Positions 1,949 through 49,581 of a DNA stretch of 64,000 nt are shown in pieces. The notes beneath the pieces were generated by a model that saw nothing but the letters and a program-made list of their open reading frames with translations, ran no database searches and was not told the origin of the DNA. The DNA comes from an uncultured Actinomycetes bacterium (GTDB lineage: Bacteria > Actinomycetota > JAICYB01): contig CAVXYW010000001.1 in NCBI GenBank assembly GCA_963766295.1, positions 4,364-68,363 on the forward strand, given 5' to 3'. Every line of letters starts with the position of its first letter. Within the stretch, counting starts at the first letter, position 1. Position numbers and translations under genes: made by a program.

Positions 1949-3186
1949 AGATCGGACTTTTCTACGAGCACAACCTGCCTCGACCGTGGAAGGAGGGTGA
2001 CGAGCTCAAGCTTTTCCAAGAAGTGCTCGAACAGGTCGAGCTCGCCGACAAACTCGGCTACCAGTACGTCTGGCAGGTAGAGCATCACTTCCTCGAGGAG
2101 TACGCACACTCGTCGGCTCCCGAGGTGCTGCTGTCCGCCTACTCGCAGCGCACGAAGAACATCCGTCTGGGTCACGGCATCGTCCAAACTCCCCCGGGCT
2201 ACAACCACCCGGCCCGCATCGCCGAGCGCATCGCCACTCTCGACCTCGTTTCCAACGGACGCGTCGAGTTCGGCACCGGTGAGTCATCGTCGCTTTCGGA
2301 GCTTGGAGGATTCGAGCTCAACGGCGCCGAGAAGCGCGACATGTGGCGCGAAGGTACGCAACTCGCCATCCGTTACATGACCGAGACGCCGTTTACCGGC
2401 TACGAAGGCAAGTACGTATCCGGCCCCGCTCGCAACTGCGTTCCCAAACCGGTTCAGAAGCCGCACCCGCCGCTGTGGGTCGCGTGCTCGCAACGCCCCA
2501 CGATCCACCTAGCGGCCGAGAACGGGATGGGCGCTCTTACGTTCTCTTTCATCTCCTCCGAAGAGGCCAAGCACTGGGTGGACGACTACTACAACACCCT
2601 CGAGAACCAGTGCGTCCCAATCGGAAAGGTCGTCAACCCAAACATCGCGTGCGTTTCCCCGCTTATGTGCGCGAAGACCGAAGAAGAGGCCATCGCCAAG
2701 GGCGAGAAGGGCTTGAACTTCTTCGGTTACGCCCTCGCGTGGTTCTACGTGTTCGGCAAGCACTACCCGGGCCGCACGTCGATCTGGGATTCCTACGAAG
2801 CCAACGGCGATCAGTTCTCACTGTTCCGTATGCAGCAGCTCAACCAGGCGCCCGACGCCATCCGCGGATGCATCGGGACGCCGGACCAGATCCGTGAGGT
2901 CCTGAGGCGTTACGAGGAAGCCGGGGTCGACCAGATCGTCTTCTTCTCGCAGGCCGGCTACAACACCCACGAGGACATCTGCGAGTCCTACGAGCTGCTG
3001 GCGAAGGAAGTGCTGCCGGAGTTCTGGGATCGCGACGCGGCCAACGAAGGAAAGAAGAAGGCGCGAGCCGAGGAGCTCAACGACAAAGCGATGTCTCGCA
3101 AGGGCGAAGAGCAGCTGCCCGAGCTCGATCCGGACTACACGATCGACTCGCCGATGGCCGGACAGATGGGGACATCGTTCCTCTAG
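1945..3186 (+). CDS. luciferase-like (LLM class) flavin/F420-dependent oxidoreductase
   Basis: MKIGLFYEHNLPRPW...LADKLGYQYVWQVEHHFLEEYAHSSAPEVLLSAYSQRTKNIRLGHGIV...LDLVSNGRVEFGTGESSS is typical of an LLM TIM barrel. The start ATG overlaps the upstream stop (ATGA). Confidence 0.8.
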   Translation: MKIGLFYEHNLPRPWKEGDELKLFQEVLEQVELADKLGYQYVWQVEHHFLEEYAHSSAPEVLLSAYSQRTKNIRLGHGIVQTPPGYNHPARIAERIATLDLVSNGRVEFGTGESSSLSELGGFELNGAEKRDMWREGTQLAIRYMTETPFTGYEGKYVSGPARNCVPKPVQKPHPPLWVACSQRPTIHLAAENGMGALTFSFISSEEAKHWVDDYYNTLENQCVPIGKVVNPNIACVSPLMCAKTEEEAIAKGEKGLNFFGYALAWFYVFGKHYPGRTSIWDSYEANGDQFSLFRMQQLNQAPDAIRGCIGTPDQIREVLRRYEEAGVDQIVFFSQAGYNTHEDICESYELLAKEVLPEFWDRDAANEGKKKARAEELNDKAMSRKGEEQLPELDPDYTIDSPMAGQMGTSFL

Positions 3187-3208
3187 AACCAGCTGGCAAG
3201 ATGGCGCG

Positions 3209-4134
<926 letters not shown>

Positions 4135-38376: not shown

Positions 38377-39636
38377 CTAGATGACGCGCAGAGCAGCCGC
38401 GGCGGCCTTGGCGCGTTCTCGGGCGGTCTCGATGTCGGGTGCCGTGGCCAGAGCGACTCCCATGCGACGGTTGGGACGTGCATCAGGCTTGCCGAAGATC
38501 CGGACATCGACGCTCGGATGAACGGCCAGAGCGTCGGCCAGGCCTTCGACGATGGGCTTGGTGTCTTCCGCTTTCGCGAGGAGAACAGCGCTCGCACCGG
38601 GTGAATCGATCGGTATGTCCGGAGTCGGAACGGGCAGACCGAGGATCGCCCGGACATGAAGAGCGAATTCAGAGAGCGACTGCGTAGCCATCGTGACCAT
38701 TCCGGTGTCGTGGGGCCGAGGCGAGACTTCGCTGAACAGGACCTCCTCGCCTTGGACGAAGAGCTCCACACCGAAGATCCCGTAACCGCCCAGCGCATCG
38801 GTGATCCGGTTCGCGACTTCGCGTCCTCGAGCGAGAGCTTCGGGTGCCATCGGGTGCGGCTGCCAGCTCTCGCGGTAGTCGCCATCTATCTGTATGTGAC
38901 CGATCGGTGCACAAAAAGACGTGCCGCCGGAATGCCGCACCGTGAGTTGGGTGATCTCGTAATCAAAGGGAACGAAACCCTCGACGATCACGCGGGCGAC
39001 CTGAGTTCGTCCGGCTTGCTGGGCAAAGTTCCATGCGTCGGCCGCGCCATCCTTCTCCTTGACGACGCTCTGCCCCTTTCCGGACGAAGACATGACGGGC
39101 TTGACCACGCACGGCACACCTAGCTCCGCTACTGCCGATTCGACCTCCTCCAGCGAGTTGCAGAACCGGTACGGCGAGGTGGGAAGTCCGAGTTCCTCGG
39201 CTGCAAGCCGCCGGATGCCTTCTCGATCCATGGTCAGCCGCGCGGCTCGCGCCGTCGGGATCACGCGCAAGCCATCGGCTTCTAGTTTCACGAGCTCGTC
39301 GGTGGCGATGGCCTCGATCTCGGGAACGACAATCAGTTCGGCGCACGGCCGCGCCCTCTCTTCCTCTAGAACGGCGCGCAGCGCACCTGCATCGGTCATC
39401 GGACTGCAGACGTGGCTTCGATGCGCGACCTGCATAGCCGGCGCGTTCGCATACCGGTCGATAGCAACAACTTCACAACCCAGCCGCATCGCCTCGATGG
39501 CCACCTCGCGTCCGAGCTCGCCGCTGCCAAGCAGGACGATGCGAACGGCTTCGTCGGTGAGCGGAGGACCTATTCGCCTCTCCGGTGCGCTGCGGGGTGG
39601 TCGCACGCGCAAAGAGTAGGACGTCCTCGCGAGCAC
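38377..39636 (-). CDS. purT: formate-dependent phosphoribosylglycinamide formyltransferase (GAR transformylase 2)
   Basis: [41 protein letters not shown] and an ATP-grasp segment ([16 protein letters not shown]) are present. The exact start is uncertain. Confidence 0.85.
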
Positions 39637-39690: not shown

Positions 39691-39774
39691 CGCGGGTCGG
39701 GTCGCCACCCCTCTCATTTTCGATTCCTATGCGGAGGCGGCGCACCTGCTGCCGTCATGCACTAGGAGGATCAG

Positions 39775-40401
39775 ATGGACGGCACTCAGAAGAAAGAAAA
39801 GCGGCGTTTCGGCGCGGCTTTGGTGGTTCTCGTCCTTGCCGTATCGGCATTGGCGATCGGAATGACCGATGCACTCTTCACCGACACGCAGTCGGTCACC
39901 GGAAACACGTTTACGACGGGGACGGTGGATATATCAGCGACACCTTCGTCGGCCGTGCTGACGGCCTCGACGATGGCCCCCGGCGACCGTGTCGAGAACT
40001 CGCTGACCGTCGCCAACGATGGCAGCCTCGAGCTGCGTTACGCGATCCAGCGGTCGGCCACGAACGCCGATCTGAAGGCCCTGCGTGACTCCCTGGGGCT
40101 GAGGATTGCAGTTCGCGGTGGCGGCGCTTGCAACTTCCCGTATTACACAACCGCCGGCTCGCCTACGGGCATCGGCGATGACACCGAGATATACGCGGGG
40201 ACAGGGTTCCCTAACTCTCCTGCGAACACCGTCGGTGACGTCGCTCAAGGAAGCCAAACAGGCGATCGCACACTCGCCGCAGCGACGAACGAAGTGCTCT
40301 GCTTCTCCGTTGTTCTGCCGCTGTCGGCAGGCAACTCATTGCAGTCTGCATCTACCACTGCGACGTTCGACTTCGTCGCGGAGCAGACGGCTAACAACTA
40401 G
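39775..40401 (+). CDS. TasA/CalY (camelysin-like) family secreted subunit with SipW-dependent-class signal peptide
   Basis: A strong SD (AGGAGG) precedes the gene. The N-terminus is KKEKRRFGAALVVLVLAVSALAIGMTDALFTDTQSVTGNTFTTGTVDIS. The C-terminus ends TATFDFVAEQTANN. Confidence 0.7.
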   Translation: MDGTQKKEKRRFGAALVVLVLAVSALAIGMTDALFTDTQSVTGNTFTTGTVDISATPSSAVLTASTMAPGDRVENSLTVANDGSLELRYAIQRSATNADLKALRDSLGLRIAVRGGGACNFPYYTTAGSPTGIGDDTEIYAGTGFPNSPANTVGDVAQGSQTGDRTLAAATNEVLCFSVVLPLSAGNSLQSASTTATFDFVAEQTANN

Positions 40402-40421
40402 ACGATGACCGTACGGACGTG

Positions 40422-40463
40422 GTCCGAGCACGCATGTCTGCGTGCTCGGACCCTTCCCTTTCC
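40422..40463 (+). terminator. 12-bp perfect hairpin with C/T-rich tail between the TasA-like gene and sipW (terminator/attenuator)
   Basis: gtccgagcacgc-atgtct-gcgtgctcggac followed by ccttccctttcc. Confidence 0.5.
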
Positions 40464-40608
40464 AGTTAGCGTCCCCGTCGGCTTCGCTACTCGGCATGAA
40501 GGGCCGTCGCCGGCGACTAGCTTGCGAAGGATCGTTGCCGTCGCCCCGGCGACCCTCGACCAAAGAGTCGACGCATATGCCACCGTGCTCATTTCCCGAG
40601 AAACAAAC

Positions 40609-41574
40609 GTGTCAAGGGCCTCCGCGCTGAAGCGAGCAGTGAGAGTGCTGGCCATGGTCGTGGTGGTCTGCGGCTGCGTCCTTTTCGCGCTACCGCTCAT
40701 CGGGCTGCCCTTCGGGTACCGGACCTATGTCGTAGCCAGCGGAAGCATGTCGCCTCATGCGCAGGCCGGTGACGCCGTTCTCCTCAAGGAGGCGCCGCAT
40801 GAAGAGATCGCCGTGGGGGACGCGATCGCATTCCAACCACTGCGATCCAGTGGTTTGACGATGCACCGAGTGATCGACATCCGCACTGTCGATGGAAAAC
40901 TCCACTTCCGCACGAAGGGCGACGCGAACGCCACGCCCGACCCCAACCTCGCCCCGGCCGCGAACGTGCTGGGACGGGTGGATGCGCGTGTTCCCTCTCT
41001 CGGTCGCGCCCTGGTGTTCGCCACCGAGAGAACGGGCCGGATGCTCCTCGTCGTTGTGCCTGCCCTCGTCCTGATCGCACGAGAAATCTTCTGGCTGCTG
41101 CAGGGCCGGGTGAAGGCGTCCGAGCGCACGCTCAGAAAACCGCGGATGGCCCTGCGTCGGTCGTTAGTCGCCACCGCGATGGTGGCGGTCAGCGTCGTCG
41201 GTTTAACGGTGCCGGCCGCCGCGCGCTTCACCGAAGGCTCCACCGTTGGCACAAACACGCTCGGCACGGGCCAGGTGAATCCGCCCAACCTCACCAGCGC
41301 GGTCGCCGACCTCCTGTTGATCTGCAAGATCACTCTGACGTGGACGGCCCCCGTCACGGGCGTGGCTCCCGATGGGTACGACGTCTACCGCAGCACGACC
41401 AATGGCGGGCCTTATTCCTTTGTCAAACATGTCGGCAATGTGACCACCACGACCGATACGAGCTTGAATCCCAGCACCACCTACTACTACGTCTTGAAGG
41501 CGTCGAGGTCTTCCTGGAGAAGCGTCAACTCCAACCAGCGCTCAGCTGCGTCGGCTTTTCTGCTCTGCCTCTAG
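40609..41574 (+). CDS. sipW: SipW-type (ER/archaeal-type) signal peptidase I fused in frame to a second SipW-class signal peptide and an FN3-like domain
   Basis: GTG 40609 is the proposed start. The order is TM, VVASGSMSP, MHRV, TKGDANATPD, C-terminal TM and basic linker. Then come MALRRSLVATAMVAVSVVGLTVPAAARFTEGSTVGTNTLGTGQV and LTWTAPVTGVAPDGYDVYRSTTNGGPYSF...YYYVLKA. No stop lies between the parts. Confidence 0.65.
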   Translation: MSRASALKRAVRVLAMVVVVCGCVLFALPLIGLPFGYRTYVVASGSMSPHAQAGDAVLLKEAPHEEIAVGDAIAFQPLRSSGLTMHRVIDIRTVDGKLHFRTKGDANATPDPNLAPAANVLGRVDARVPSLGRALVFATERTGRMLLVVVPALVLIAREIFWLLQGRVKASERTLRKPRMALRRSLVATAMVAVSVVGLTVPAAARFTEGSTVGTNTLGTGQVNPPNLTSAVADLLLICKITLTWTAPVTGVAPDGYDVYRSTTNGGPYSFVKHVGNVTTTTDTSLNPSTTYYYVLKASRSSWRSVNSNQRSAASAFLLCL

Positions 41575-41876: not shown

Positions 41877-44036
41877 ATGCCCATAGCGATCCTCGACTCT
41901 CACCGCGAGCTGGAATCTGTAGCACGCTCGTTCCTCGAGAAGGCCGGCGCTCGCGCCGACTCTCGTGCGCTCCTCGACGCCACGGACGACGCCCTGCCGT
42001 CGTTCTGGAAGGAGATCGCCGGGCTAGGCTGGCTCGGCCTTCACATCTCCGAAGATTTCGGCGGCGCAGGTTACGGTCTCCCCGAGCTAGTCGTCGTCCT
42101 GCAGGAGATGGGACGCGCCGACGCACCCGGACCGTTCCTCCCGACGGTGATGGCGTCGACAACGATCGCGCGCACGGCAACGAAGGAGCAGCAAGCCGAG
42201 CTACTCCCATCTCTGGCCGACGGAAGCAAGATCGGTGCCCTCGGTTGGACGAACGCACTCGAGCTCAAGGCCGGCAAGCTCTCCGGCGATGGCGGTCTCA
42301 TCCTCGGCGGCAATCTCGCCGACTTGTTCGTCCTCACGGTAGGAGCTGATGTCGTCATCGTCGATCGCGACGCGGCCGGGCTCGAGGTCAACAGCACCGG
42401 CCAATTCGACCAAACGCGACGCAACGTGCGAATTACCGCCAAAGACGTTGCTGTGAGCGAAGACCGGCTAATCCCAGATGCTGCATCTGTAGCTATCGAC
42501 GTCGCACGCGCGCTCGCAGCGGCCGAAGCCGCCGGCATCGCGCAAGAGTGCGTCGAGCGGGCAACGGAGTACGCGAAGGTGCGTGAACAGTTCGGCCGCG
42601 TCATCGCGACGTTCCAGGCCGTCAAGCACCACTGTGCGAACATGCTCGTCAACTCAGAGCTCGCGACGGCAACGACATGGGATGCGGCGCGCGCATCCGA
42701 GAACGACCCCGAGCAATTCCGTCTAGCCGCCGCCGTCGCCGCCGTCGAGTCGATCCCGACCGCCCTCGTGAACGCACAGCTCAACATCCAGGTGCACGGC
42801 GGTATCGGTTTCACGTGGGAGCACGACGGCCACATGCTGCTCCGGCGCACGTCGTCACTCGTCGCCTTCGTCGATGCAGACGACGCGGCGCGCGACATCG
42901 TCGACATGCGTTCTTCAGGACTTTCGCGCGAGTTCGGCATCGATCTGCCTCCGGAAGCCGAAGAGCTCCGCACGAAGACGCGCAAAGTGGCCGAAGAGAT
43001 CACCGCTCTACCGACCGATCAGCAGCTGGCCAAGATGGTCGAGAACGGCTACATCCAGCCGCACTGGCCCAAACCGTGGGGACTCGAAGCGAAAGCACTC
43101 GAGCAGCTCGTCATCGACGAAGAGTTCAAGCGCGCGAAGATCCACCGTCCGAGCTACGGGATCACGGCGTGGAACATCCTGACCGTCATCCAGCACGGCA
43201 CACAGGATCAGGTCGAGCGCTGGGTGAAGCCGACGCTCATGGAGGAGCTCGTTTGGTGCCAGCTGTTCAGTGAACCCGACGCCGGTTCGGACGCTGCCGC
43301 CGTGAAAACGAAGGCGGAGAAGGTCGAAGGCGGCTTCGTCGTCAACGGTCAGAAGGTGTGGACGTCCGGCGCGCAGTACTGCCACAAGGGGCTCGCAACG
43401 GTACGCACCGACCCGGACGCTCAGAAGCACGCCGGCGTCACGACGGTGGTCATCGACATGCACGCCGAGGGCGTCGAGGTTCGTCCGCTGCGCGAAGCGT
43501 CGGGACACTCGATGTTCAACGAGGTTTTCTTCGAGAACGTGTTCGTTCCGGATGAGGACGTTGTCGGTCCGGTTAACGGTGGATGGACCGTCGCCCGCGC
43601 AACGCTGGGCAACGAGCGCATCAGCATCGGCGGCGGTGTCGGCGTCGGCATCGCGATCGACCTCGTTTCGATCTACAACGAGCACGCCAAGGACAAGGAT
43701 GGTATGAAGACGGCCGTCGGCAAGCACGTCGCCGAAGAGCAGACGCTCAAGCTGCTCAACCTGCGATCGGCCGAGCGCGCCGTCGCCGGCGGGGAGCCGG
43801 GCCCGGAAGGCAACGTCACCAAGCTCGTTAGCGCCGAGAACATGCAGCGGTCGTCCGACCTCGCCTTGAAGATGGCCGGACCGGAGACCGTGTCGATCGA
43901 GGGCATCGGCGGCCTGGTGTCGAACATCCACATCTTCAGCCGGGCCATGACGATCGCCGGAGGTACCTCGGAGATCACGCGCAACCAGATCGGCGAGCGG
44001 ATCCTCGGCCTGCCGCGTGATCCGCTGATCAAGTGA
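41877..44036 (+). CDS. tandem (two-module) acyl-CoA dehydrogenase
   Basis: The first module has GWLGLHISEDFGGAGYG, IATFQAVKHHCANM and IQVHGGIGFTWEHDGHMLLRR. The second has LFSEPDAGSDAAAVKTKAE, NGQKVWTSGAQY and a C-terminal GGTSEITRNQIGE. Confidence 0.85.
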   Translation: MPIAILDSHRELESVARSFLEKAGARADSRALLDATDDALPSFWKEIAGLGWLGLHISEDFGGAGYGLPELVVVLQEMGRADAPGPFLPTVMASTTIARTATKEQQAELLPSLADGSKIGALGWTNALELKAGKLSGDGGLILGGNLADLFVLTVGADVVIVDRDAAGLEVNSTGQFDQTRRNVRITAKDVAVSEDRLIPDAASVAIDVARALAAAEAAGIAQECVERATEYAKVREQFGRVIATFQAVKHHCANMLVNSELATATTWDAARASENDPEQFRLAAAVAAVESIPTALVNAQLNIQVHGGIGFTWEHDGHMLLRRTSSLVAFVDADDAARDIVDMRSSGLSREFGIDLPPEAEELRTKTRKVAEEITALPTDQQLAKMVENGYIQPHWPKPWGLEAKALEQLVIDEEFKRAKIHRPSYGITAWNILTVIQHGTQDQVERWVKPTLMEELVWCQLFSEPDAGSDAAAVKTKAEKVEGGFVVNGQKVWTSGAQYCHKGLATVRTDPDAQKHAGVTTVVIDMHAEGVEVRPLREASGHSMFNEVFFENVFVPDEDVVGPVNGGWTVARATLGNERISIGGGVGVGIAIDLVSIYNEHAKDKDGMKTAVGKHVAEEQTLKLLNLRSAERAVAGGEPGPEGNVTKLVSAENMQRSSDLALKMAGPETVSIEGIGGLVSNIHIFSRAMTIAGGTSEITRNQIGERILGLPRDPLIK

Positions 44037-45528: not shown

Positions 45529-48500
45529 TCACGGGTCGCAGCCACCCGGGCAGGTGACCTCCAATATCTCCGCGCTGAACGAATGGTCGAGGTCTCCTCC
45601 AGGGTTGCTCACCGCAAAGCCGCGGAATCCGTCGGGAGCATCGCCAGCAACATCAACCACCACGATGAGCCTGTCGTATTCGCCGTCCGGGAGCACGACG
45701 GACTTGGTCGTGATCCCCTCACCGAAGTCCACCCACGCATTAGAAGAGAAGTTCTCACCATGGACGACCATCACTTGATCGTTGGCGCCCTGCGTGATCG
45801 GCGATGGATTGACACCACTGATGCCGGCCTTGGGGCAGATCTCCTCCGAGATGTCGATCGGGAAGATATCGAACACGATGCGGGATCTGAACTCGATCCC
45901 TGCGGGACACGTGATCCGGCTGCCCTCTTCCGGACTATTCATCGAGTGACCGGTGCAGCTGGGCGGAGTAAGTATGGAGCACTCGACATTGACGCCCCAG
46001 TTCTGAGCCTTGAATCCCTCTGGCAGAACGATCTTAAGATCGTCCCAGTCATCAGGCGTCTCCTGGTTTACGACGGTGCCGTGTACGAGCCCGTTGGCCG
46101 TGTCGACACTTATCCGCTGGCAGTCCGGTTCGCAGGTGTCGTCGGTTTCAACGTGTGCGGCCAACTCCTTCTCGATGAACAGCGATGCGACTGTGCTCTC
46201 CCCTCCGCATCGGCCATCGTTGTTCACTGAGCCCGCGCAATGGAAGACCTCAACGTGTGTCGGTTCACCGCTTTTGAGCCCACCGGGCGTGATCTTGTAG
46301 GACGATTCGTCGATGGTCTTCTCGAAGTTGTTTGCACTGGCGCACTCGTTGTGATGCGGAGAGATACAAGCGACCAGCGTCTTCGGCATGTCCTCGATGG
46401 TTGCCCGGAGCAAAGCGAGTCCCGCGCCGGCGTTAGTCGAGAACTCTAGTCCCTTCCCTTCCGAAGGACTCGAGTAGGTCACCTCCGTCTTGGTGCTGCT
46501 GCCGGGATGAGTCTTGCCAGTAGTGCCGCGGATGTCGCGGTGGATCCTTATGTCTATATCTGCAGGCGGCCTTTCGTAAACGGCTTTCATGAAAGAAATG
46601 TTGTCGAGCTTCGAGTTGTCTCGGGTTCGGCGCAGGAACATCAACGGCTCAGGCGTCCGGTTGCCCTGCTCAAAGATCGTATGGACGTGGATGTCCTCGG
46701 TGTTGAATTCCTTCGGGTCTCCGGCAGACTGCTTCCGAAAGTCCACGTGACGGAGATTGTTCGCCTGCGCGTAGATGGTCTCGAATTCCGAGTCGAAGTC
46801 GTCGATCAATACACCGTTGCGCCCATCGAGCAGGTCGCGCTTGTCCTCATCAGCGTCGGTGACGAGGAACTCGACTCGTCCGATGGCGAAGGGACCGGTG
46901 TCAAGACTGAAGCCCTTGTCGACCAAGAACTCGTCGCCACTTGTTTCCGTCGAACCCAGGACGAGGTCAACCTTGGGCGGGAGGTTAGTCAGCGTAGCGT
47001 CGATGTTGTGCGAACTTCCGATGATCGGGTCAGGGAAGTTGTGCGCGTGGGCGATGATCGTGCCGATCGCCTCGTTGGCCGTGTAGTGAACCTCTTTAGC
47101 GTCGCGGTTGTATGTGAGGTCGACACTGCTCGGGAGATCATCGATGTCCGCTTCGATTCGCTGGGTTTGAATAGGCGATCCAGCTTCCTGAGTCTGCGTG
47201 AACGTGCGGATGCCGAAGTCATCACCCGCGCTCTGGATGTCGATGTGGAGAGGATTCCCCCAACCCACCTCGGCCCCCGTGATACCGCCGATATGCACCT
47301 CGGCCAGGTACGGCTCACCATCGTCGAGGCGGTCGATCAGATGAATGCCATCCTCGTCTGCAGAAACGCAGGGGATGCAGCTATCTAGATCCGAGCCGAT
47401 ACGAGCGTCCAGGCGCCCGAGCGGTGGGCCGGTGATGACTGCCGTCATCTCCTTACTCACGTCATCGAGGTTGACGACGATGTGCGTTGGCAGGTCGGTG
47501 AGCGTGACTTGCAGTTCCTTCGCGTCGTTGAATAGCGGCGTCGAACTCGTCACGTCCAGCGTGAGCTCCCCGAGCACCGACAACGAGTCGTAGGTCAAAC
47601 GCGAGGCCGTGCTCTCGTCATCGATCCCGCCTGGGAGGCCCGGGCCGCCGGGGGCGAAGCCGAGGACGCCATCGTCACTACTGACCCCTCCGACTGGAGG
47701 GAAGTACTTCACGTGAGCGGTCTCCGGCAGGTTCGTCATCACGCCATCGATCGTCAGCTGCTGCACGACCGGCAAATTGTCGACGACCGAGTTGCGGGCG
47801 ATCTGCGCGTCGATCGTGAACAGCGCCTCGGTGTGCTCAATGTCCACCGAGATGGGCGCGCCCCATCCCAGGCTCGCGCTCTTGACCTCGGACGCGCGCA
47901 AGAACACCTCGTAGGGTTGGACAGTAGACGACACGCTCTCGCCTGGAGGGATTGGGTCGAAGAACAACAGGCCATCGCCCGATGGGATCTCATTCTCAGG
48001 TCCGTTGGTCAGAAGTAGCTCGACCTGACCCACTTTTCCGCCCGTCATCGTGATGTCGAACGTCTTATTACCGGCGTTCATTACCGTTCCGAGGCCGGTT
48101 GGAACGTCCGTTGCTTCCAGGTGTGCCTTGGTCGCCCGTCCCATGATGAACTTGGTTGAGGTGAGGTCGAAGATCACCGAGGCGATCTTGTCGGACCCTC
48201 GGTACACCGCAGCCTGCTTGTCCTTCTCATAACTGAGGAAGACAGTCTCGGGCAGATCACGGAGCTTCCCGATGACATTGGCGTCCGGTGTCGAGATCGA
48301 CACGTCGAATGGTCCGGGGGTGTGTTTGAGATCGACGCTCATCACGTCGCCCCAGCCCACAGCCGAGGAGCCAACTCCGAGCAGGTGCAGATCGGCCACT
48401 GTTGCGTTGTCGGTCAAGCTGGCGCTCAGATACTGGATCGGGTCGGACGGCGGTGCAGGGAGATCCGCGCCTGGCGTGAACTTCGCGAAGCGGATGGTCG

Positions 48501-49581
48501 CCTCGCCGATCTTTCCTGTGGTGGTGAACTTGGCGTTAGTTGCGGTGTCCTTCGCGAAGCTCGCCGCTGTCGGTAGGTCCACTAGATGTGCGTTCACATG
48601 CGTGGTGTCCTCGCCGGCCGTCAACGATGTGACGTCTACCTTTGTGTCGTGGATGGGAGCCGAAGTTGCGTAGGTAACACCCGCCGCGCTGAAGGTTAGG
48701 TCGGTCGTTGGTGGGAGGTTCGCCAGCCCGACGAGGGCCGTCGTCTTCTTCGCGCCGGCTTCGTTCAGGAACGCCAGGCCGAGCTCGCTGGGTGTGGGCG
48801 TTGTGATGTGCGCCTTATATGTCGAGTTCCCGAGAATGTCGATGATCGCCTGCAGCTTCGATGGCACCGGCGCGAACTTGGCGGCAACCTGAGTCGGATC
48901 CACTACGGCGGTGCCGACCTTGTTGAATGCAGCGCCGAGGATCGTGAGGTCGGAACCCGCTCCGGTTGGGAACGCGTCGACGGAAAGTCGTGTCGGTGCC
49001 GATGAGACCTGCGTCCGGAAAATCAAAGGAGTCTTCGTGTTGCATGCGTTGAACCCAAACGCCACACGGCTCGGGTCGGCGGATCCGTTCGGTGCAAGAA
49101 CCGCTTGGACCTGCGCTGGGAAGGCTCCCAGACCGATCTTGGTCACGAGCATCGTGAGGTTGGTCGTGTTAGTTACGCCCGGGATCGGCGGAATCGGTGC
49201 GACGAGTACCGTCGCGTCCGGCAATGCCGAGCCTCCGAGGTCCACCGGAGTCGGGATCGCATAGCGCGCCCTAACGACCTTGCTCGTGGCGCAGCCTGAT
49301 CCGCCCAACGTGTGGATCTCATACGAAACAGGATCGAGCGCCTGATTTAGTTGACCCACAAGCGGCGCAAGGCTCGGCAGTGACACCTTGAGATCGGCTT
49401 TCACCGCTGGTGTTTCGCTCGACCCAATGAAAAGACTGATGGATATGGTGAGCGCCATCGCTGTGGCTGCTGCCACTACCAGGACGATCACACTGGCAAC
49501 GACAACGCCCCCGCGCGTTCGTAGCCGCCGACGTATGCCTGAGCCAAGAGCTGAATCAAAAGAACCTGCGGATCGCCGCAC
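45529..49581 (-). CDS. 1350-aa N-terminally anchored extracellular protein with unrecognised ~190-aa repeats, a Cys-rich region and a C-terminal IPT/TIG-like domain
   Basis: GTG 49581 lies 4 nt after AAGGGAG. A TM (VVVASVIVLVVAAATAMAL) follows. The recurring pattern is GWG..(I/V)..D(I/L).H....F followed by (D/N)LP..V.L.Y. The C-terminus reads ISGVNPSPITQGANDQVMVVHGENFSSNAWVDFGEG...FAVSNPGGD. Confidence 0.8.
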   Translation of the reverse strand: MRRSAGSFDSALGSGIRRRLRTRGGVVVASVIVLVVAAATAMALTISISLFIGSSETPAVKADLKVSLPSLAPLVGQLNQALDPVSYEIHTLGGSGCATSKVVRARYAIPTPVDLGGSALPDATVLVAPIPPIPGVTNTTNLTMLVTKIGLGAFPAQVQAVLAPNGSADPSRVAFGFNACNTKTPLIFRTQVSSAPTRLSVDAFPTGAGSDLTILGAAFNKVGTAVVDPTQVAAKFAPVPSKLQAIIDILGNSTYKAHITTPTPSELGLAFLNEAGAKKTTALVGLANLPPTTDLTFSAAGVTYATSAPIHDTKVDVTSLTAGEDTTHVNAHLVDLPTAASFAKDTATNAKFTTTGKIGEATIRFAKFTPGADLPAPPSDPIQYLSASLTDNATVADLHLLGVGSSAVGWGDVMSVDLKHTPGPFDVSISTPDANVIGKLRDLPETVFLSYEKDKQAAVYRGSDKIASVIFDLTSTKFIMGRATKAHLEATDVPTGLGTVMNAGNKTFDITMTGGKVGQVELLLTNGPENEIPSGDGLLFFDPIPPGESVSSTVQPYEVFLRASEVKSASLGWGAPISVDIEHTEALFTIDAQIARNSVVDNLPVVQQLTIDGVMTNLPETAHVKYFPPVGGVSSDDGVLGFAPGGPGLPGGIDDESTASRLTYDSLSVLGELTLDVTSSTPLFNDAKELQVTLTDLPTHIVVNLDDVSKEMTAVITGPPLGRLDARIGSDLDSCIPCVSADEDGIHLIDRLDDGEPYLAEVHIGGITGAEVGWGNPLHIDIQSAGDDFGIRTFTQTQEAGSPIQTQRIEADIDDLPSSVDLTYNRDAKEVHYTANEAIGTIIAHAHNFPDPIIGSSHNIDATLTNLPPKVDLVLGSTETSGDEFLVDKGFSLDTGPFAIGRVEFLVTDADEDKRDLLDGRNGVLIDDFDSEFETIYAQANNLRHVDFRKQSAGDPKEFNTEDIHVHTIFEQGNRTPEPLMFLRRTRDNSKLDNISFMKAVYERPPADIDIRIHRDIRGTTGKTHPGSSTKTEVTYSSPSEGKGLEFSTNAGAGLALLRATIEDMPKTLVACISPHHNECASANNFEKTIDESSYKITPGGLKSGEPTHVEVFHCAGSVNNDGRCGGESTVASLFIEKELAAHVETDDTCEPDCQRISVDTANGLVHGTVVNQETPDDWDDLKIVLPEGFKAQNWGVNVECSILTPPSCTGHSMNSPEEGSRITCPAGIEFRSRIVFDIFPIDISEEICPKAGISGVNPSPITQGANDQVMVVHGENFSSNAWVDFGEGITTKSVVLPDGEYDRLIVVVDVAGDAPDGFRGFAVSNPGGDLDHSFSAEILEVTCPGGCDP

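What the first reader, a model, noticed from the sequence alone, without database searches (positions are those of the whole stretch)
39775..41574. TasA-like fibre subunit followed by a SipW-type signal peptidase fused in frame to what looks like its own substrate (second SipW-class signal peptide plus FN3 domain)
Seen in the sequence:
- The 208-aa product of 39775-40401 starts with a basic n-region and an h-region, followed by MTDALFTDTQSVTGNTFTTGTVDIS. That is the xFTDxxxxxxNxFxxGT(V/L)D pattern of SipW-dependent signal peptides on TasA/CalY (camelysin-like) proteins.
- A perfect 12-bp hairpin follows the gene (40422-40451).
- The next ORF has ER/archaeal-type signal peptidase I motifs (SGSMSP, HRV, KGDAN..D) between two TM helices.
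- It does not stop after the second TM. It continues through a basic linker (RVKASERTLRKPR) into MALRRSLVATAMVAVSVVGLTVPAAARFTEGSTVGTNTLGTGQV. This is a second signal peptide of the same class, with an ATG at 41146.
- An FN3-like domain follows (LTWTAPV..YDVYRS..YYYVLKA).

Established knowledge: in Bacillus, sipW sits in the tapA-sipW-tasA operon and processes TasA and TapA. The same signal-peptide class occurs next to SipW homologues in other phyla.

Inference: the peptidase may be translated as one polypeptide with a substrate that it releases, for example an FN3 accessory or anchoring protein for a TasA-like fibre. Alternatively, a nested cistron starts at 41146. The hairpin would keep the subunit in excess over the enzyme. 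There is no TapA homologue, and I do not know of a described SipW-substrate fusion.
Basis: partly seen in the sequence, partly recalled or inferred. Interest (0 to 1): 0.7.

Follow-up and report, generated by a model that had tools for sequence, protein, structure and literature searches.

The report
Signal peptidase fused to fibre-starter protein
An uncultured actinobacterium carries a two-gene cassette for a TasA-like biofilm fibre in which the dedicated signal peptidase is made as one protein with a small secreted domain that probably starts the fibre, so the enzyme appears to carry one of its own substrates.

Summary
ORF 39775-40401 is a TasA/camelysin-family protein with a SipW-type signal peptide. 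A perfect 14-bp hairpin follows it (40421-40452). The next ORF (40405/40609-41574) is an archaeal/ER-type signal peptidase I. It runs in frame through a basic cytoplasmic linker into a third hydrophobic segment, an AxA site, a TasA-like N-terminal strand and a complete FN3 domain.

The fusion is not an assembly error. At least 22 distinct homologues down to about 29% identity share the architecture, and the gene pair sits in unrelated neighbourhoods. Other genomes carry the same module as a separate gene with an N-terminal signal peptide, directly after tasA-like and sipW (L006, L007, L011).

Three results point to a retained cleavage site:
- The -3/-1 rule holds in 31 of 31 sequences.
- The post-cleavage strand matches the TasA-like N-terminus (hhalign 95%, E 2e-8).
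- That strand co-varies with the TasA-like N-terminus locus by locus (8 of 40320 permutations).

Best reading: the FN3 module is a functional analogue of Bacillus TapA. The peptidase would release it, and its donor strand would prime the fibre. Cleavage and fibre initiation are inferred, not shown.

The hairpin probably lies inside the peptidase ORF, whose start is probably ATG 40405. A nested cistron at 41146 is unlikely.

This is a new variant of a known system.

The parts
39764..39769 (+). AGGAGG ribosome-binding site 5 nt before the subunit start codon
   Evidence: Read directly from the sequence. No comparable site precedes ATG 40405, GTG 40609 or ATG 41146.
39775..40401 (+). TasA/camelysin-family fibre subunit, 208 aa. 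The signal peptide is aa 1-33, with predicted cleavage TDA|LFTD after nt 39873.
   Evidence: Pfam PF12389 scores 46.9 bits and TIGR04088 scores 21.3 bits, both above cutoff. The family profile hits TasA 8aur/5of1 at E about 5e-7. The top Foldseek PDB hits for the AF2 model are TasA 5of2/5of1 (E 1.4e-5). There are 410 homologues, several named 'TasA family protein'.
40421..40452 (+). Perfect 14-bp G+C-rich hairpin, 20 nt after the subunit stop codon and 16 nt after ATG 40405, followed by a pyrimidine-rich tail CTTCCCTTTC
   Evidence: Energy -34.1 kcal/mol, z = -5.6. Flagged as terminator-like. Conserved in L004 and L005, and in L001 with three compensatory pair changes. Hairpins of unrelated sequence sit at the same position in L002, L006 and L007; none in L003. 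No Rfam family matches.
40405..41574 (+). Peptidase-FN3 fusion ORF, 389 aa from ATG 40405. Alternative start GTG 40609 gives 321 aa.
   Evidence: Single open frame. The architecture is conserved in at least 22 homologues.
40456..40482 (+). Conserved PFPVSVPVG motif in the cytoplasmic N-terminal extension. It argues that translation starts at ATG 40405.
   Evidence: Between the window and L001 there are 5 synonymous codon differences, including AGC to TCG for Ser, and no amino-acid change. Related Pro-rich N-termini occur in P0006 and P0012-P0015.
40615..40713 (+). TM1 of the peptidase (aa 71-103)
   Evidence: AF2 helix 3-35 in 321-aa numbering.
40714..41028 (+). Extracytoplasmic catalytic domain of an archaeal/ER-type signal peptidase I. 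Catalytic residues: Ser114 (40744-40746), His154 (40864-40866), Asp173 (40921-40923).
   Evidence: TIGR02228 scores 94 bits (cutoff 51.85). Ser, His and Asp columns are invariant in 17 sequences. Foldseek matches human SEC11 7p2q_A at TM 0.61.
41029..41115 (+). TM2 of the peptidase (aa 209-237)
   Evidence: AF2 helix 141-169 in 321-aa numbering.
41116..41223 (+). Basic cytoplasmic linker plus the internal signal peptide: n-region KASERTLRKPRMALRR, h-region SLVATAMVAVSVVGLTV, c-region PAAA. Predicted cleavage is after Ala273, nt 41223.
   Evidence: AF2 helix 179-199. It aligns colinearly with N-terminal signal peptides of standalone homologues. -3 is A/S/T and -1 is A/G in 31 of 31 sequences. 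hhalign against the TasA-like N-terminus gives 95.4%, E 1.9e-8.
41224..41286 (+). Donor-strand-like segment RFTEGSTVGTNTLGTGQVNPP. It would be the N-terminus of the released module.
   Evidence: pLDDT is below 50, so it is predicted disordered in the monomer, as is the equivalent segment of the TasA-like protein. It is similar to the TasA-like N-terminus and co-varies with it within loci.
41287..41550 (+). Complete seven-strand FN3 domain (aa 295-382)
   Evidence: AF2 pLDDT about 90 with seven strands. Foldseek matches FN3 domains, for example 3mpc at TM 0.79. Pfam fn3 scores 22.3 bits against a cutoff of 25.
41323..41568 (+). Conserved cysteine pair, Cys307 (41323-41325) and Cys388 (41566-41568), a possible disulfide
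   Evidence: Both are present in 15 of 17 aligned fusions and both are absent in P0019 and P0021. No distance was measured.

Best explanation
This is a minimal two-gene cassette for a TasA-type extracellular fibre.

Gene 1 encodes the major subunit. It has a strong ribosome-binding site and a SipW-type signal peptide.

Gene 2 encodes the dedicated archaeal/ER-type signal peptidase. The predicted topology is N-terminus in, TM1, catalytic domain outside, TM2. Its cytoplasmic C-terminus continues through a basic linker into a third hydrophobic segment. That segment acts as an internal signal peptide and places a 116-aa module outside the cell.

The peptidase domain, of the same molecule or a neighbouring one, cuts after PAAA (Ala273). 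This releases a protein with two parts: a disordered N-terminal strand (RFTEGSTVGTNTLGTGQV) resembling the subunit's own N-terminal donor strand, and a complete FN3 domain.

The proposed role parallels that reported for Bacillus TapA, which has a complete Ig fold plus a donor strand. The strand would fill the groove of the first TasA-like subunit and so nucleate or cap the fibre. The closed FN3 fold cannot itself accept a strand.

Fusion fixes the enzyme and initiator at one to one and places them together. The conserved hairpin at the 5' end of gene 2, and the lack of a ribosome-binding site, keep both scarce relative to the subunit.

Shown here: domain identities, topology prediction, conservation of the fusion, existence of split versions, conserved cleavage-site features, and strand similarity and co-variation.

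Inferred: the cleavage itself, whether it is in cis or in trans, donor-strand initiation, and what the hairpin does.
For: Domain identities.

The fusion is conserved in 17 aligned homologues and 5 further cluster representatives. The gene pair is conserved with unrelated flanks in L001-L003.

Split versions exist in L006, L007 and L011. There the same module is a separate preprotein immediately after sipW.

Cleavage-site features are kept in all 22 fusions and 9 standalone proteins: -3 is A/S/T, -1 is A/G, P2' is F/Y/L. A Phe at P2' is the feature that makes TasA a SipW substrate rather than a LepB substrate (abstract of PMC10269814).

hhalign of the module against the TasA-like family gives 95.4%, E 1.9e-8 over the signal peptide plus mature N-terminus.

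The post-cleavage strands co-vary within loci. The cognate-pair score sum is 291, against a permutation mean of 184 +/- 28. Only 8 of 40320 permutations reach it.

The strand is predicted disordered and the FN3 domain is complete with seven strands.

Literature for the analogy:
- TasA residues 28-38 form the donor strand, and the TapA N-terminus resembles it and is modelled in the TasA groove (PMC9674648).
- TapA has a complete V-set Ig fold plus a disordered donor strand and acts only as initiator. TapA and SipW are both scarce, and the overlap of the tapA stop and sipW start codons hints at an association (PMC10151520).

An independent fusion of the same logic exists in L081: peptidase, internal signal peptide, FN3-like domain and NHL propeller, next to two TasA-like genes. 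Its strand motif matches its own neighbours.
Against: - No experimental or proteomic evidence of cleavage exists.
- The curated TIGR04088 model does not recognise the window's internal signal peptide, and it hits only 2 of 18 aligned members of this module.
- The co-variation could reflect shared recognition by the peptidase, or gene conversion, rather than a shared groove.
- The AF2 model has pTM 0.51, so the arrangement of domains is uninformative.
- No multimer prediction could be run to test insertion of the strand into the TasA-like groove.
- The FN3 module has no sequence homology to TapA; no TapA family was hit.
- After cleavage the signal peptide would stay tethered to the enzyme, with unknown consequences.
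Confidence: 0.6

Rival explanations
1. The third hydrophobic segment is an uncleaved signal anchor, so the FN3 domain stays tethered to the peptidase. It then serves one of two roles. It could be a membrane anchor for the fibre base, with the strand inserted into the first subunit while still attached. Or it could be a permanent accessory domain of the enzyme, comparable to eukaryotic SPC22/23 or to the DUF5305 accessory protein that is sometimes fused to signal peptidase I.
For: A peptidase plus an extra TM plus an extracellular beta-sandwich resembles the SEC11/SPC22-23 arrangement. It also resembles the DUF5305-peptidase fusion described in bioRxiv 10.64898/2026.01.04.697558. TapA is reported to co-localise with the membrane (PMC10151520). 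TIGR04088 does not recognise the internal segment. No cleavage data exist.
Against: The -3/-1 small-residue rule and an aromatic or Leu residue at P2' are kept in all 22 fusions, exactly as in the 9 standalone preproteins. That is unexpected for a mere anchor. Standalone and L081 versions carry extra C-terminal cargo domains, which is typical of secreted tip proteins rather than enzyme subunits. Fused and split forms alternate among close relatives (P0013-P0015 against L011), which implies the same mature product.
Confidence: 0.25
2. There is a nested cistron. The FN3 preprotein is translated separately from ATG 41146 inside the peptidase ORF, and the read-through fusion is a by-product.
For: An in-frame ATG lies at 41146, just before the basic n-region. 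In L011 the module is a separate, overlapping gene with its own ATG.
Against: The Met is not conserved: P0002 has Arg. L001, L004 and L081 have no ATG/GTG/TTG between TM2 and the n-region. The window has no ribosome-binding site upstream of 41146. No stop codon ends the peptidase part in any of the 22 fusions.
Confidence: 0.05
3. The fusion is an assembly or sequencing artefact, a missed stop or an indel, and this is an ordinary sipW plus a downstream substrate gene.
For: Split versions exist in some genomes (L006, L007, L011). The linker is low-complexity and G+C-rich, which makes it indel-prone.
Against: The same in-frame architecture occurs in at least 22 distinct sequences from independent assemblies and sources (NCBI, ENA, JGI, Logan). 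Identity to the window ranges from about 29% to 83% among the 17 aligned, and linker lengths vary.
Confidence: 0.02

Closest known systems
Bacillus subtilis tapA-sipW-tasA operon
   Same: Both have a TasA-family major subunit with a SipW-type signal peptide. Both have a dedicated archaeal/ER-type signal peptidase. Both have a low-abundance accessory protein built from a closed Ig-like fold and a disordered N-terminal strand resembling the subunit's donor strand. The accessory and peptidase genes are physically coupled; in Bacillus the stop and start codons overlap (PMC10151520, PMC9674648).
   Different: Gene order here is subunit first, then peptidase plus accessory. The accessory is FN3, not a V-set Ig domain, and has no sequence similarity to TapA. 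It is covalently fused to the C-terminus of the peptidase behind an internal signal peptide. The peptidase scores far below the Bacillus SipW equivalog cutoff (80.5 against 190). The host is an uncultured actinobacterium.
Signal peptidase I fused to the DUF5305 accessory protein in TasA-superfamily loci (for example Anaerolinea thermophila E8MZY1; bioRxiv 10.64898/2026.01.04.697558)
   Same: A fibre-dedicated signal peptidase I carries extra TM helices and an extracellular beta-sandwich in one polypeptide. The same paper describes tip and minor subunits with donor strands in such loci.
   Different: DUF5305 is proposed as a permanent enzyme subunit with a cytoplasmic alpha/beta domain. Here the fused part has the hallmarks of a cleavable substrate: an n-h-c signal peptide, an AxA site, a donor-like strand, and standalone preprotein homologues.
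Standalone signal-peptide-FN3 proteins after sipW in related loci (P0069 in L006, P0053 in L007, the 171-aa ORF in L011)
   Same: They have a homologous FN3 domain, the same signal-peptide and strand motif, and the same position after tasA-like and sipW.
   Different: They are separate genes. Most carry an additional C-terminal domain of about 170 aa and lack the cysteine pair.
Internal signal peptides in viral polyproteins cleaved by host signal peptidase (for example flaviviruses; from general knowledge)
   Same: A signal peptide in the middle of a membrane polyprotein directs the downstream part across the membrane and is cut by signal peptidase.
   Different: Here the polyprotein would contain the peptidase itself.

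Membership tests
TasA/camelysin family (Pfam PF12389) - product of 39775-40401 | Profile match above the curated cutoff | tested here: met
   46.9 bits against a cutoff of 22.5. The family profile hits TasA 8aur/5of1 at E about 5e-7.
TasA/camelysin family (Pfam PF12389) - product of 39775-40401 | TasA-like jellyroll fold | tested here: met
   The top three Foldseek PDB hits are TasA 5of2/5of1 (E 1.4e-5 to 1.6e-4, TM 0.38-0.44). Archaeal AbpA 7ueg is at rank 13. The TM scores are modest.
TasA/camelysin family (Pfam PF12389) - product of 39775-40401 | Assembles into fibres by donor-strand exchange | not testable with these tools
   The N-terminal segment is predicted disordered in the monomer, which is consistent but is not a test.
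Bacillus TasA equivalog (NF046066) | Score above the equivalog cutoff | tested here: not met
   34.3 bits against a cutoff of 450. It is a family member, not an orthologue of B. subtilis TasA.
Archaeal/ER-type signal peptidase I (TIGR02228; S26B) | Profile match above cutoff | tested here: met
   94 bits against a cutoff of 51.85, over aa 85-226 of 389.
Archaeal/ER-type signal peptidase I (TIGR02228; S26B) | Catalytic Ser, His and Asp conserved, with no Lys general base | tested here: met
   SGSMSP Ser114, HRV His154 and GDAN Asp173 are invariant in 17 sequences. Assignment of catalytic roles rests on published SipW mutagenesis, recalled from memory.
Archaeal/ER-type signal peptidase I (TIGR02228; S26B) | Catalytic domain flanked by two TM helices | tested here: met
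   AF2 helices 3-35 and 141-169. Foldseek matches human SEC11 at TM 0.61.
Bacillus SipW equivalog (NF046067) | Score above the equivalog cutoff | tested here: not met
   80.5 bits against a cutoff of 190. It is SipW-type in function and context, not an orthologue.
SipW-dependent-type signal peptide (TIGR04088) - internal segment aa ~245-294 | Match to the curated model | tested here: not met
   No hit for the window's segment at E<=10. Only 2 of 18 aligned members of this module hit, best E 0.009.
SipW-dependent-type signal peptide (TIGR04088) - internal segment aa ~245-294 | Similarity to the signal peptide and N-terminus of the cognate TasA-like protein | tested here: met
   hhalign 95.4%, E 1.9e-8 over 46 columns.
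SipW-dependent-type signal peptide (TIGR04088) - internal segment aa ~245-294 | n-h-c organisation with small residues at -3/-1 and an aromatic residue at P2' | tested here: met
   The n-region is basic, the h-region is 17 aa, and Pro is at -4. -3 is A/S/T, -1 is A/G and P2' is F/Y/L in 31 of 31 sequences.
SipW-dependent-type signal peptide (TIGR04088) - internal segment aa ~245-294 | Located at the N-terminus of a precursor and cleaved by SipW | tested here: inconclusive
   It is internal here, but N-terminal in standalone homologues. Cleavage cannot be tested with these tools.
Fibronectin type III domain (PF00041) | Profile match above cutoff | tested here: inconclusive
   19.8-22.3 bits against a cutoff of 25.
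Fibronectin type III domain (PF00041) | Seven-strand FN3 fold | tested here: met
   AF2 gives seven strands at pLDDT about 90. Foldseek matches 3mpc (TM 0.79) and many other FN3 domains.
TapA (B. subtilis fibre initiator) | Sequence homology to TapA/YqxM | tested here: not met
   No TapA/YqxM family appears among the NCBIfam or Pfam hits. The module is an analogue, not a member.
TapA (B. subtilis fibre initiator) | Closed Ig-like fold plus a disordered N-terminal strand resembling the subunit's donor strand | tested here: met
   compared with PMC10151520 and PMC9674648.
TapA (B. subtilis fibre initiator) | Nucleates TasA polymerisation | not testable with these tools
   This needs multimer prediction or biochemistry.

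The most novel reading that the evidence does not exclude
The peptidase processes its own C-terminal cargo in cis, and the cut-off signal peptide stays covalently tethered to the enzyme. Each enzyme molecule would then deliver exactly one fibre initiator at the place where it goes on to process subunits. In effect it would be a self-priming assembly site, which sets fibre number per cell by enzyme copy number.

Alternatively the site is not cut, and the signal peptidase itself is the membrane anchor of the fibre base.

Either reading makes a signal peptidase a structural part of a fibre-assembly machine rather than a free processing enzyme.
Probability: 0.3. Interest if true: 0.75.

Novelty: new variant of a known kind. 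Interest (0 to 1): 0.6.

Why it matters
TasA-type fibres are a widespread biofilm scaffold in bacteria and archaea. The initiator TapA, however, is not conserved even within Bacillus, so how fibres are started elsewhere is open.

This cassette suggests a general answer. The starter would be any closed Ig-like domain that carries a copy of the subunit's donor strand. Here it is welded to the dedicated peptidase.

The fused and split forms provide a natural 'Rosetta stone' that links the FN3 proteins to the peptidase. The two-gene system is small enough to reconstitute. It also gives a clean experimental handle on cis against trans cleavage by an ER-type signal peptidase.

I found no description of a signal peptidase fused to its own substrate in the papers searched.

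Tried and rejected
- TIGR04088 on the internal signal peptide gave no hit for the window, and 2 of 18 for the aligned members of this module. I relied on profile-profile comparison and site statistics instead.
- GC content by codon position in 40405-40608 is flat in the window (0.63/0.59/0.65). That is ambiguous for coding status. The start-codon question was settled provisionally by the synonymous-substitution pattern in PFPVSVPVG.
- The search for related loci with the 17-sequence alignment failed because it had no conserved stretch. I repeated it with 9 sequences.
- Looking up the contig of P0001, the window's own protein, found nothing on record.
- The search of 1.84 billion representatives was swamped by giant multi-FN3 proteins. 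It yielded only a lower bound of 9 fusion clusters.
- Rfam has no family for the hairpin region.
- The 1350-aa ORF downstream has no similarity to the giant protein next to the cassette in L003.
- Rejected: a nested cistron at 41146 and an assembly artefact.
- I could not read model coordinates. The distance from the cleavage site to Ser114 and the Cys-Cys distance were therefore not measured.
Full report
OBSERVATION

The window between purT (38377-39636, minus strand) and an acyl-CoA dehydrogenase gene (41877-44036) holds two plus-strand ORFs.

ORF 1, 39775-40401, encodes 208 aa and is preceded by AGGAGG at 39764-39769.
- It matches Pfam Peptidase_M73/camelysin at 46.9 bits (cutoff 22.5).
- It matches the NCBIfam SipW-cognate signal-peptide model TIGR04088 at 21.3 bits (cutoff 19).
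- A profile of 42 homologues hits B. subtilis TasA structures 8aur and 5of1 at E about 5e-7.
- An AlphaFold2 model (mean pLDDT 78.8) has TasA 5of2/5of1 as its three best PDB matches.
- There are 410 homologues at E<=0.001. Those that carry a name come from Actinomycetota and Chloroflexota MAGs, and several are annotated 'TasA family protein'.

The hairpin lies twenty bases after the stop codon. It is a perfect 14-bp stem at 40421-40452, with energy -34 kcal/mol and z = -5.6.

ORF 2 is open from ATG 40405 to 41574.
- Residues 85-226 match the archaeal-type signal peptidase I model TIGR02228 at 94 bits (cutoff 51.85).
- Ser114, His154 and Asp173 lie in invariant columns.
- The frame continues through KASERTLRKPRMALRR, a 17-residue hydrophobic stretch, PAAA|RFTEGSTVGTNTLGTGQVNPP and an FN3 domain.
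- The AlphaFold2 model (pLDDT 75.3) has helices at 3-35, 141-169 and 179-199. The segment after PAAA is disordered. A confident seven-strand domain follows.
- Foldseek matches solved FN3 domains and human SEC11.

A regular-expression search of all six frames of the 64-kb window finds the motif behind a hydrophobic stretch only at these two places.

IS THE FUSION REAL?

Yes. A search of 5.8 billion proteins returned 17 full-length relatives covering 85-100% of the query. Their identity to the window falls to about 29% in the alignment. They come from NCBI, ENA, JGI and Logan assemblies. The exhaustive search of 1.84 billion representatives added five more. It showed at least nine clusters at 50% identity.

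All share the same layout:
- peptidase;
- second TM helix;
- Arg-rich linker of variable length;
- hydrophobic segment;
- small-x-small site;
- (R/L/I/V)(F/L/Y)(T/V)(D/E)...N..(F/L)..G motif;
- FN3 domain.

In five loci the fusion gene directly follows a Peptidase_M73 gene.
- L004 and L005 are syntenic with the window.
- L001, L002 and L003 have unrelated flanks, so the pair behaves as a cassette.

Among 185,579 species representatives only a handful carry the full fusion. Most are uncultured Actinomycetota. The closest is a MAG labelled 'uncultured Actinomycetes bacterium MFD09212.bin.2.201', at 82% identity.

SPLIT VERSIONS

Several weaker hits are standalone proteins. They begin with an ordinary N-terminal signal peptide, followed by the same strand motif and a homologous FN3 domain (YYYV.RS....W.S.NSN..SA). 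Most continue into a further domain.

- In L006 and L007 the order is Peptidase_M73, then a 196- or 236-aa protein, then this standalone gene.
- The middle protein matches TIGR02228 above cutoff (56.7 and 69.7 bits).
- The standalone gene overlaps the peptidase gene by 13 nt in L006 and starts 3 nt after it in L007.
- In L011, a relative of the fused P0013-P0015 clade, the peptidase (2971-3555) and the module (3528-4043, own ATG) are separate overlapping ORFs.

The fused module therefore equals a downstream substrate gene. Fusion and fission have both happened across the unconstrained linker.

An independent example is L081. There two TasA-like genes precede a 700-aa protein with Peptidase_S26, an internal signal peptide, an FN3-like domain and NHL repeats.

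IS THE INTERNAL SEGMENT A CLEAVABLE SIGNAL PEPTIDE OF THE SAME CLASS?

- The curated TIGR04088 model does not see it in the window. It sees it in only 2 of the 18 aligned members of this module.
- A profile of the module aligns with the TasA-like family profile over the signal peptide and mature N-terminus, at 95.4% probability and E 1.9e-8.
- In 22 fusions and 9 standalone proteins, position -3 is always A, S or T. Position -1 is always A or G, and P2' is always F, Y or L. The TasA-like family shows the same pattern.
- The 20-21 residues after the site co-vary with the N-terminus of the neighbouring TasA-like protein. L003 and L007 share a one-residue deletion and loss of the Asn in both genes. 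L081 shares ..TS.SNP in both.
- Over eight independent loci the summed cognate score is 291, against 184 +/- 28 for permuted pairings. Only 8 of 40320 permutations reach it.
- An internal start codon before the n-region is not conserved: P0002 has Arg for the window's Met248. Such a start lacks a ribosome-binding site in the window. The module must therefore normally be made as part of the fusion.

MECHANISM

In B. subtilis, residues 28-38 of mature TasA form a donor strand that completes the next subunit. The TapA N-terminus resembles that strand and is modelled in the TasA groove (PMC9674648).

TapA has a complete V-set Ig fold and a disordered N-terminal strand. It can sit only at the start of a filament. 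It is as scarce as SipW, and the tapA stop codon overlaps the sipW start (PMC10151520).

The module here has the same logic: a closed Ig-like fold (FN3) behind a disordered copy of the subunit's N-terminal strand.

I therefore propose that it is a TapA analogue. The positive-inside linker and third hydrophobic segment export it. The peptidase cuts after Ala273. The released 116-aa protein primes or caps the fibre.

Fusion would fix the enzyme and initiator at one to one and co-localise them.

Cleavage, the choice between cis and trans, and strand insertion are all inferred.

The main rival, at about 0.25, is that the segment is not cut. The FN3 domain would then stay on the enzyme as a fibre anchor or an accessory domain. 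That would resemble the DUF5305-peptidase fusion noted in bioRxiv 10.64898/2026.01.04.697558.

HAIRPIN AND START CODON

The stem is identical in L004 and L005. In L001 it carries three compensatory pair changes while the encoded residues differ.

Strong hairpins of unrelated sequence sit just after the subunit gene in L002, L006 and L007, with z between -3.2 and -3.5. L003 has none, and its genes abut. This is therefore a selected RNA structure.

The ATG four bases after the subunit stop codon is conserved. The ORF is open from it in all four related loci.

The motif PFPVSVPVG just after the hairpin differs from L001 by five synonymous codon changes and no replacement. This indicates translation from 40405. 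In this clade the hairpin would occupy codons 6-16 of gene 2.

GC content by codon position in the window is uninformative.

The likely effect is to lower expression of gene 2 relative to gene 1, either by partial termination or by blocking initiation. I could not distinguish the two.

COMPARISON AND NOVELTY

Gene 1 is a member of the TasA/camelysin family. The peptidase is a member of the archaeal/ER-type S26 family. Neither reaches the Bacillus equivalog cutoffs.

The module is an FN3 domain by fold. It is a TapA analogue by architecture, not a homologue.

The literature I searched describes dedicated peptidases, tip and minor subunits, and a peptidase-accessory fusion. It does not describe a peptidase-substrate fusion.

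I rate this a new variant of a known kind, with interest 0.6.

Noticed in passing
window 40405-40608 (motif at 40456-40482): The peptidase has a cytoplasmic N-terminal extension of about 70 aa containing a conserved PFPVSVPVG motif. The motif shows synonymous-only changes against L001. Pro-rich N-termini also occur in distant fusions (P0006, P0012-P0015). No family match was found and its function is unknown.
   Followed up: partly
window 41323-41325 and 41566-41568: A cysteine at the start of the FN3 domain and a cysteine one to three residues from the C-terminus are present together in 15 of 17 fusions. Both are absent in P0019 and P0021. This suggests a disulfide that pins the C-terminal tail. 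The distance in the model was not measured.
   Followed up: no
L081 1152-5022: A low-G+C MAG contig labelled Burkholderiales carries two tandem TasA-like genes followed by a 700-aa fusion. The fusion comprises a peptidase, an internal signal peptide, an FN3-like domain and an NHL propeller. Its strand motif (AFTASSTTSTSNP) mirrors its neighbours' motif (TFTGTADTSASNP). This looks like an independent fusion with a larger cargo.
   Followed up: partly
L006 12-3671 and 6259-8935: The split tasA-like/sipW/FN3 cassette in L006 is flanked by small unannotated genes and an SPP1-type portal protein gene. The cassette may therefore sit in or next to a prophage-like element.
   Followed up: no
L011 2971-4043: In a close relative of the fused P0013-P0015 clade, the peptidase and the signal-peptide-FN3 module are separate ORFs overlapping by 28 nt. 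This is either a natural fission or a frameshift in that assembly.
   Followed up: partly
window 45529-49581 (minus strand): A 1350-aa ORF with an N-terminal hydrophobic segment has no Pfam family match. It has no similarity to the giant protein (over 1750 aa) upstream of the cassette in L003.
   Followed up: partly
P0024, P0027, P0033, P0034 (haloarchaeal-type signal peptidase I homologues): These peptidases also carry long C-terminal extensions: an acidic linker, additional hydrophobic segments and a further domain. They lack the FT(D/E)...N motif. This is a different kind of extended SipW-type peptidase.
   Followed up: no
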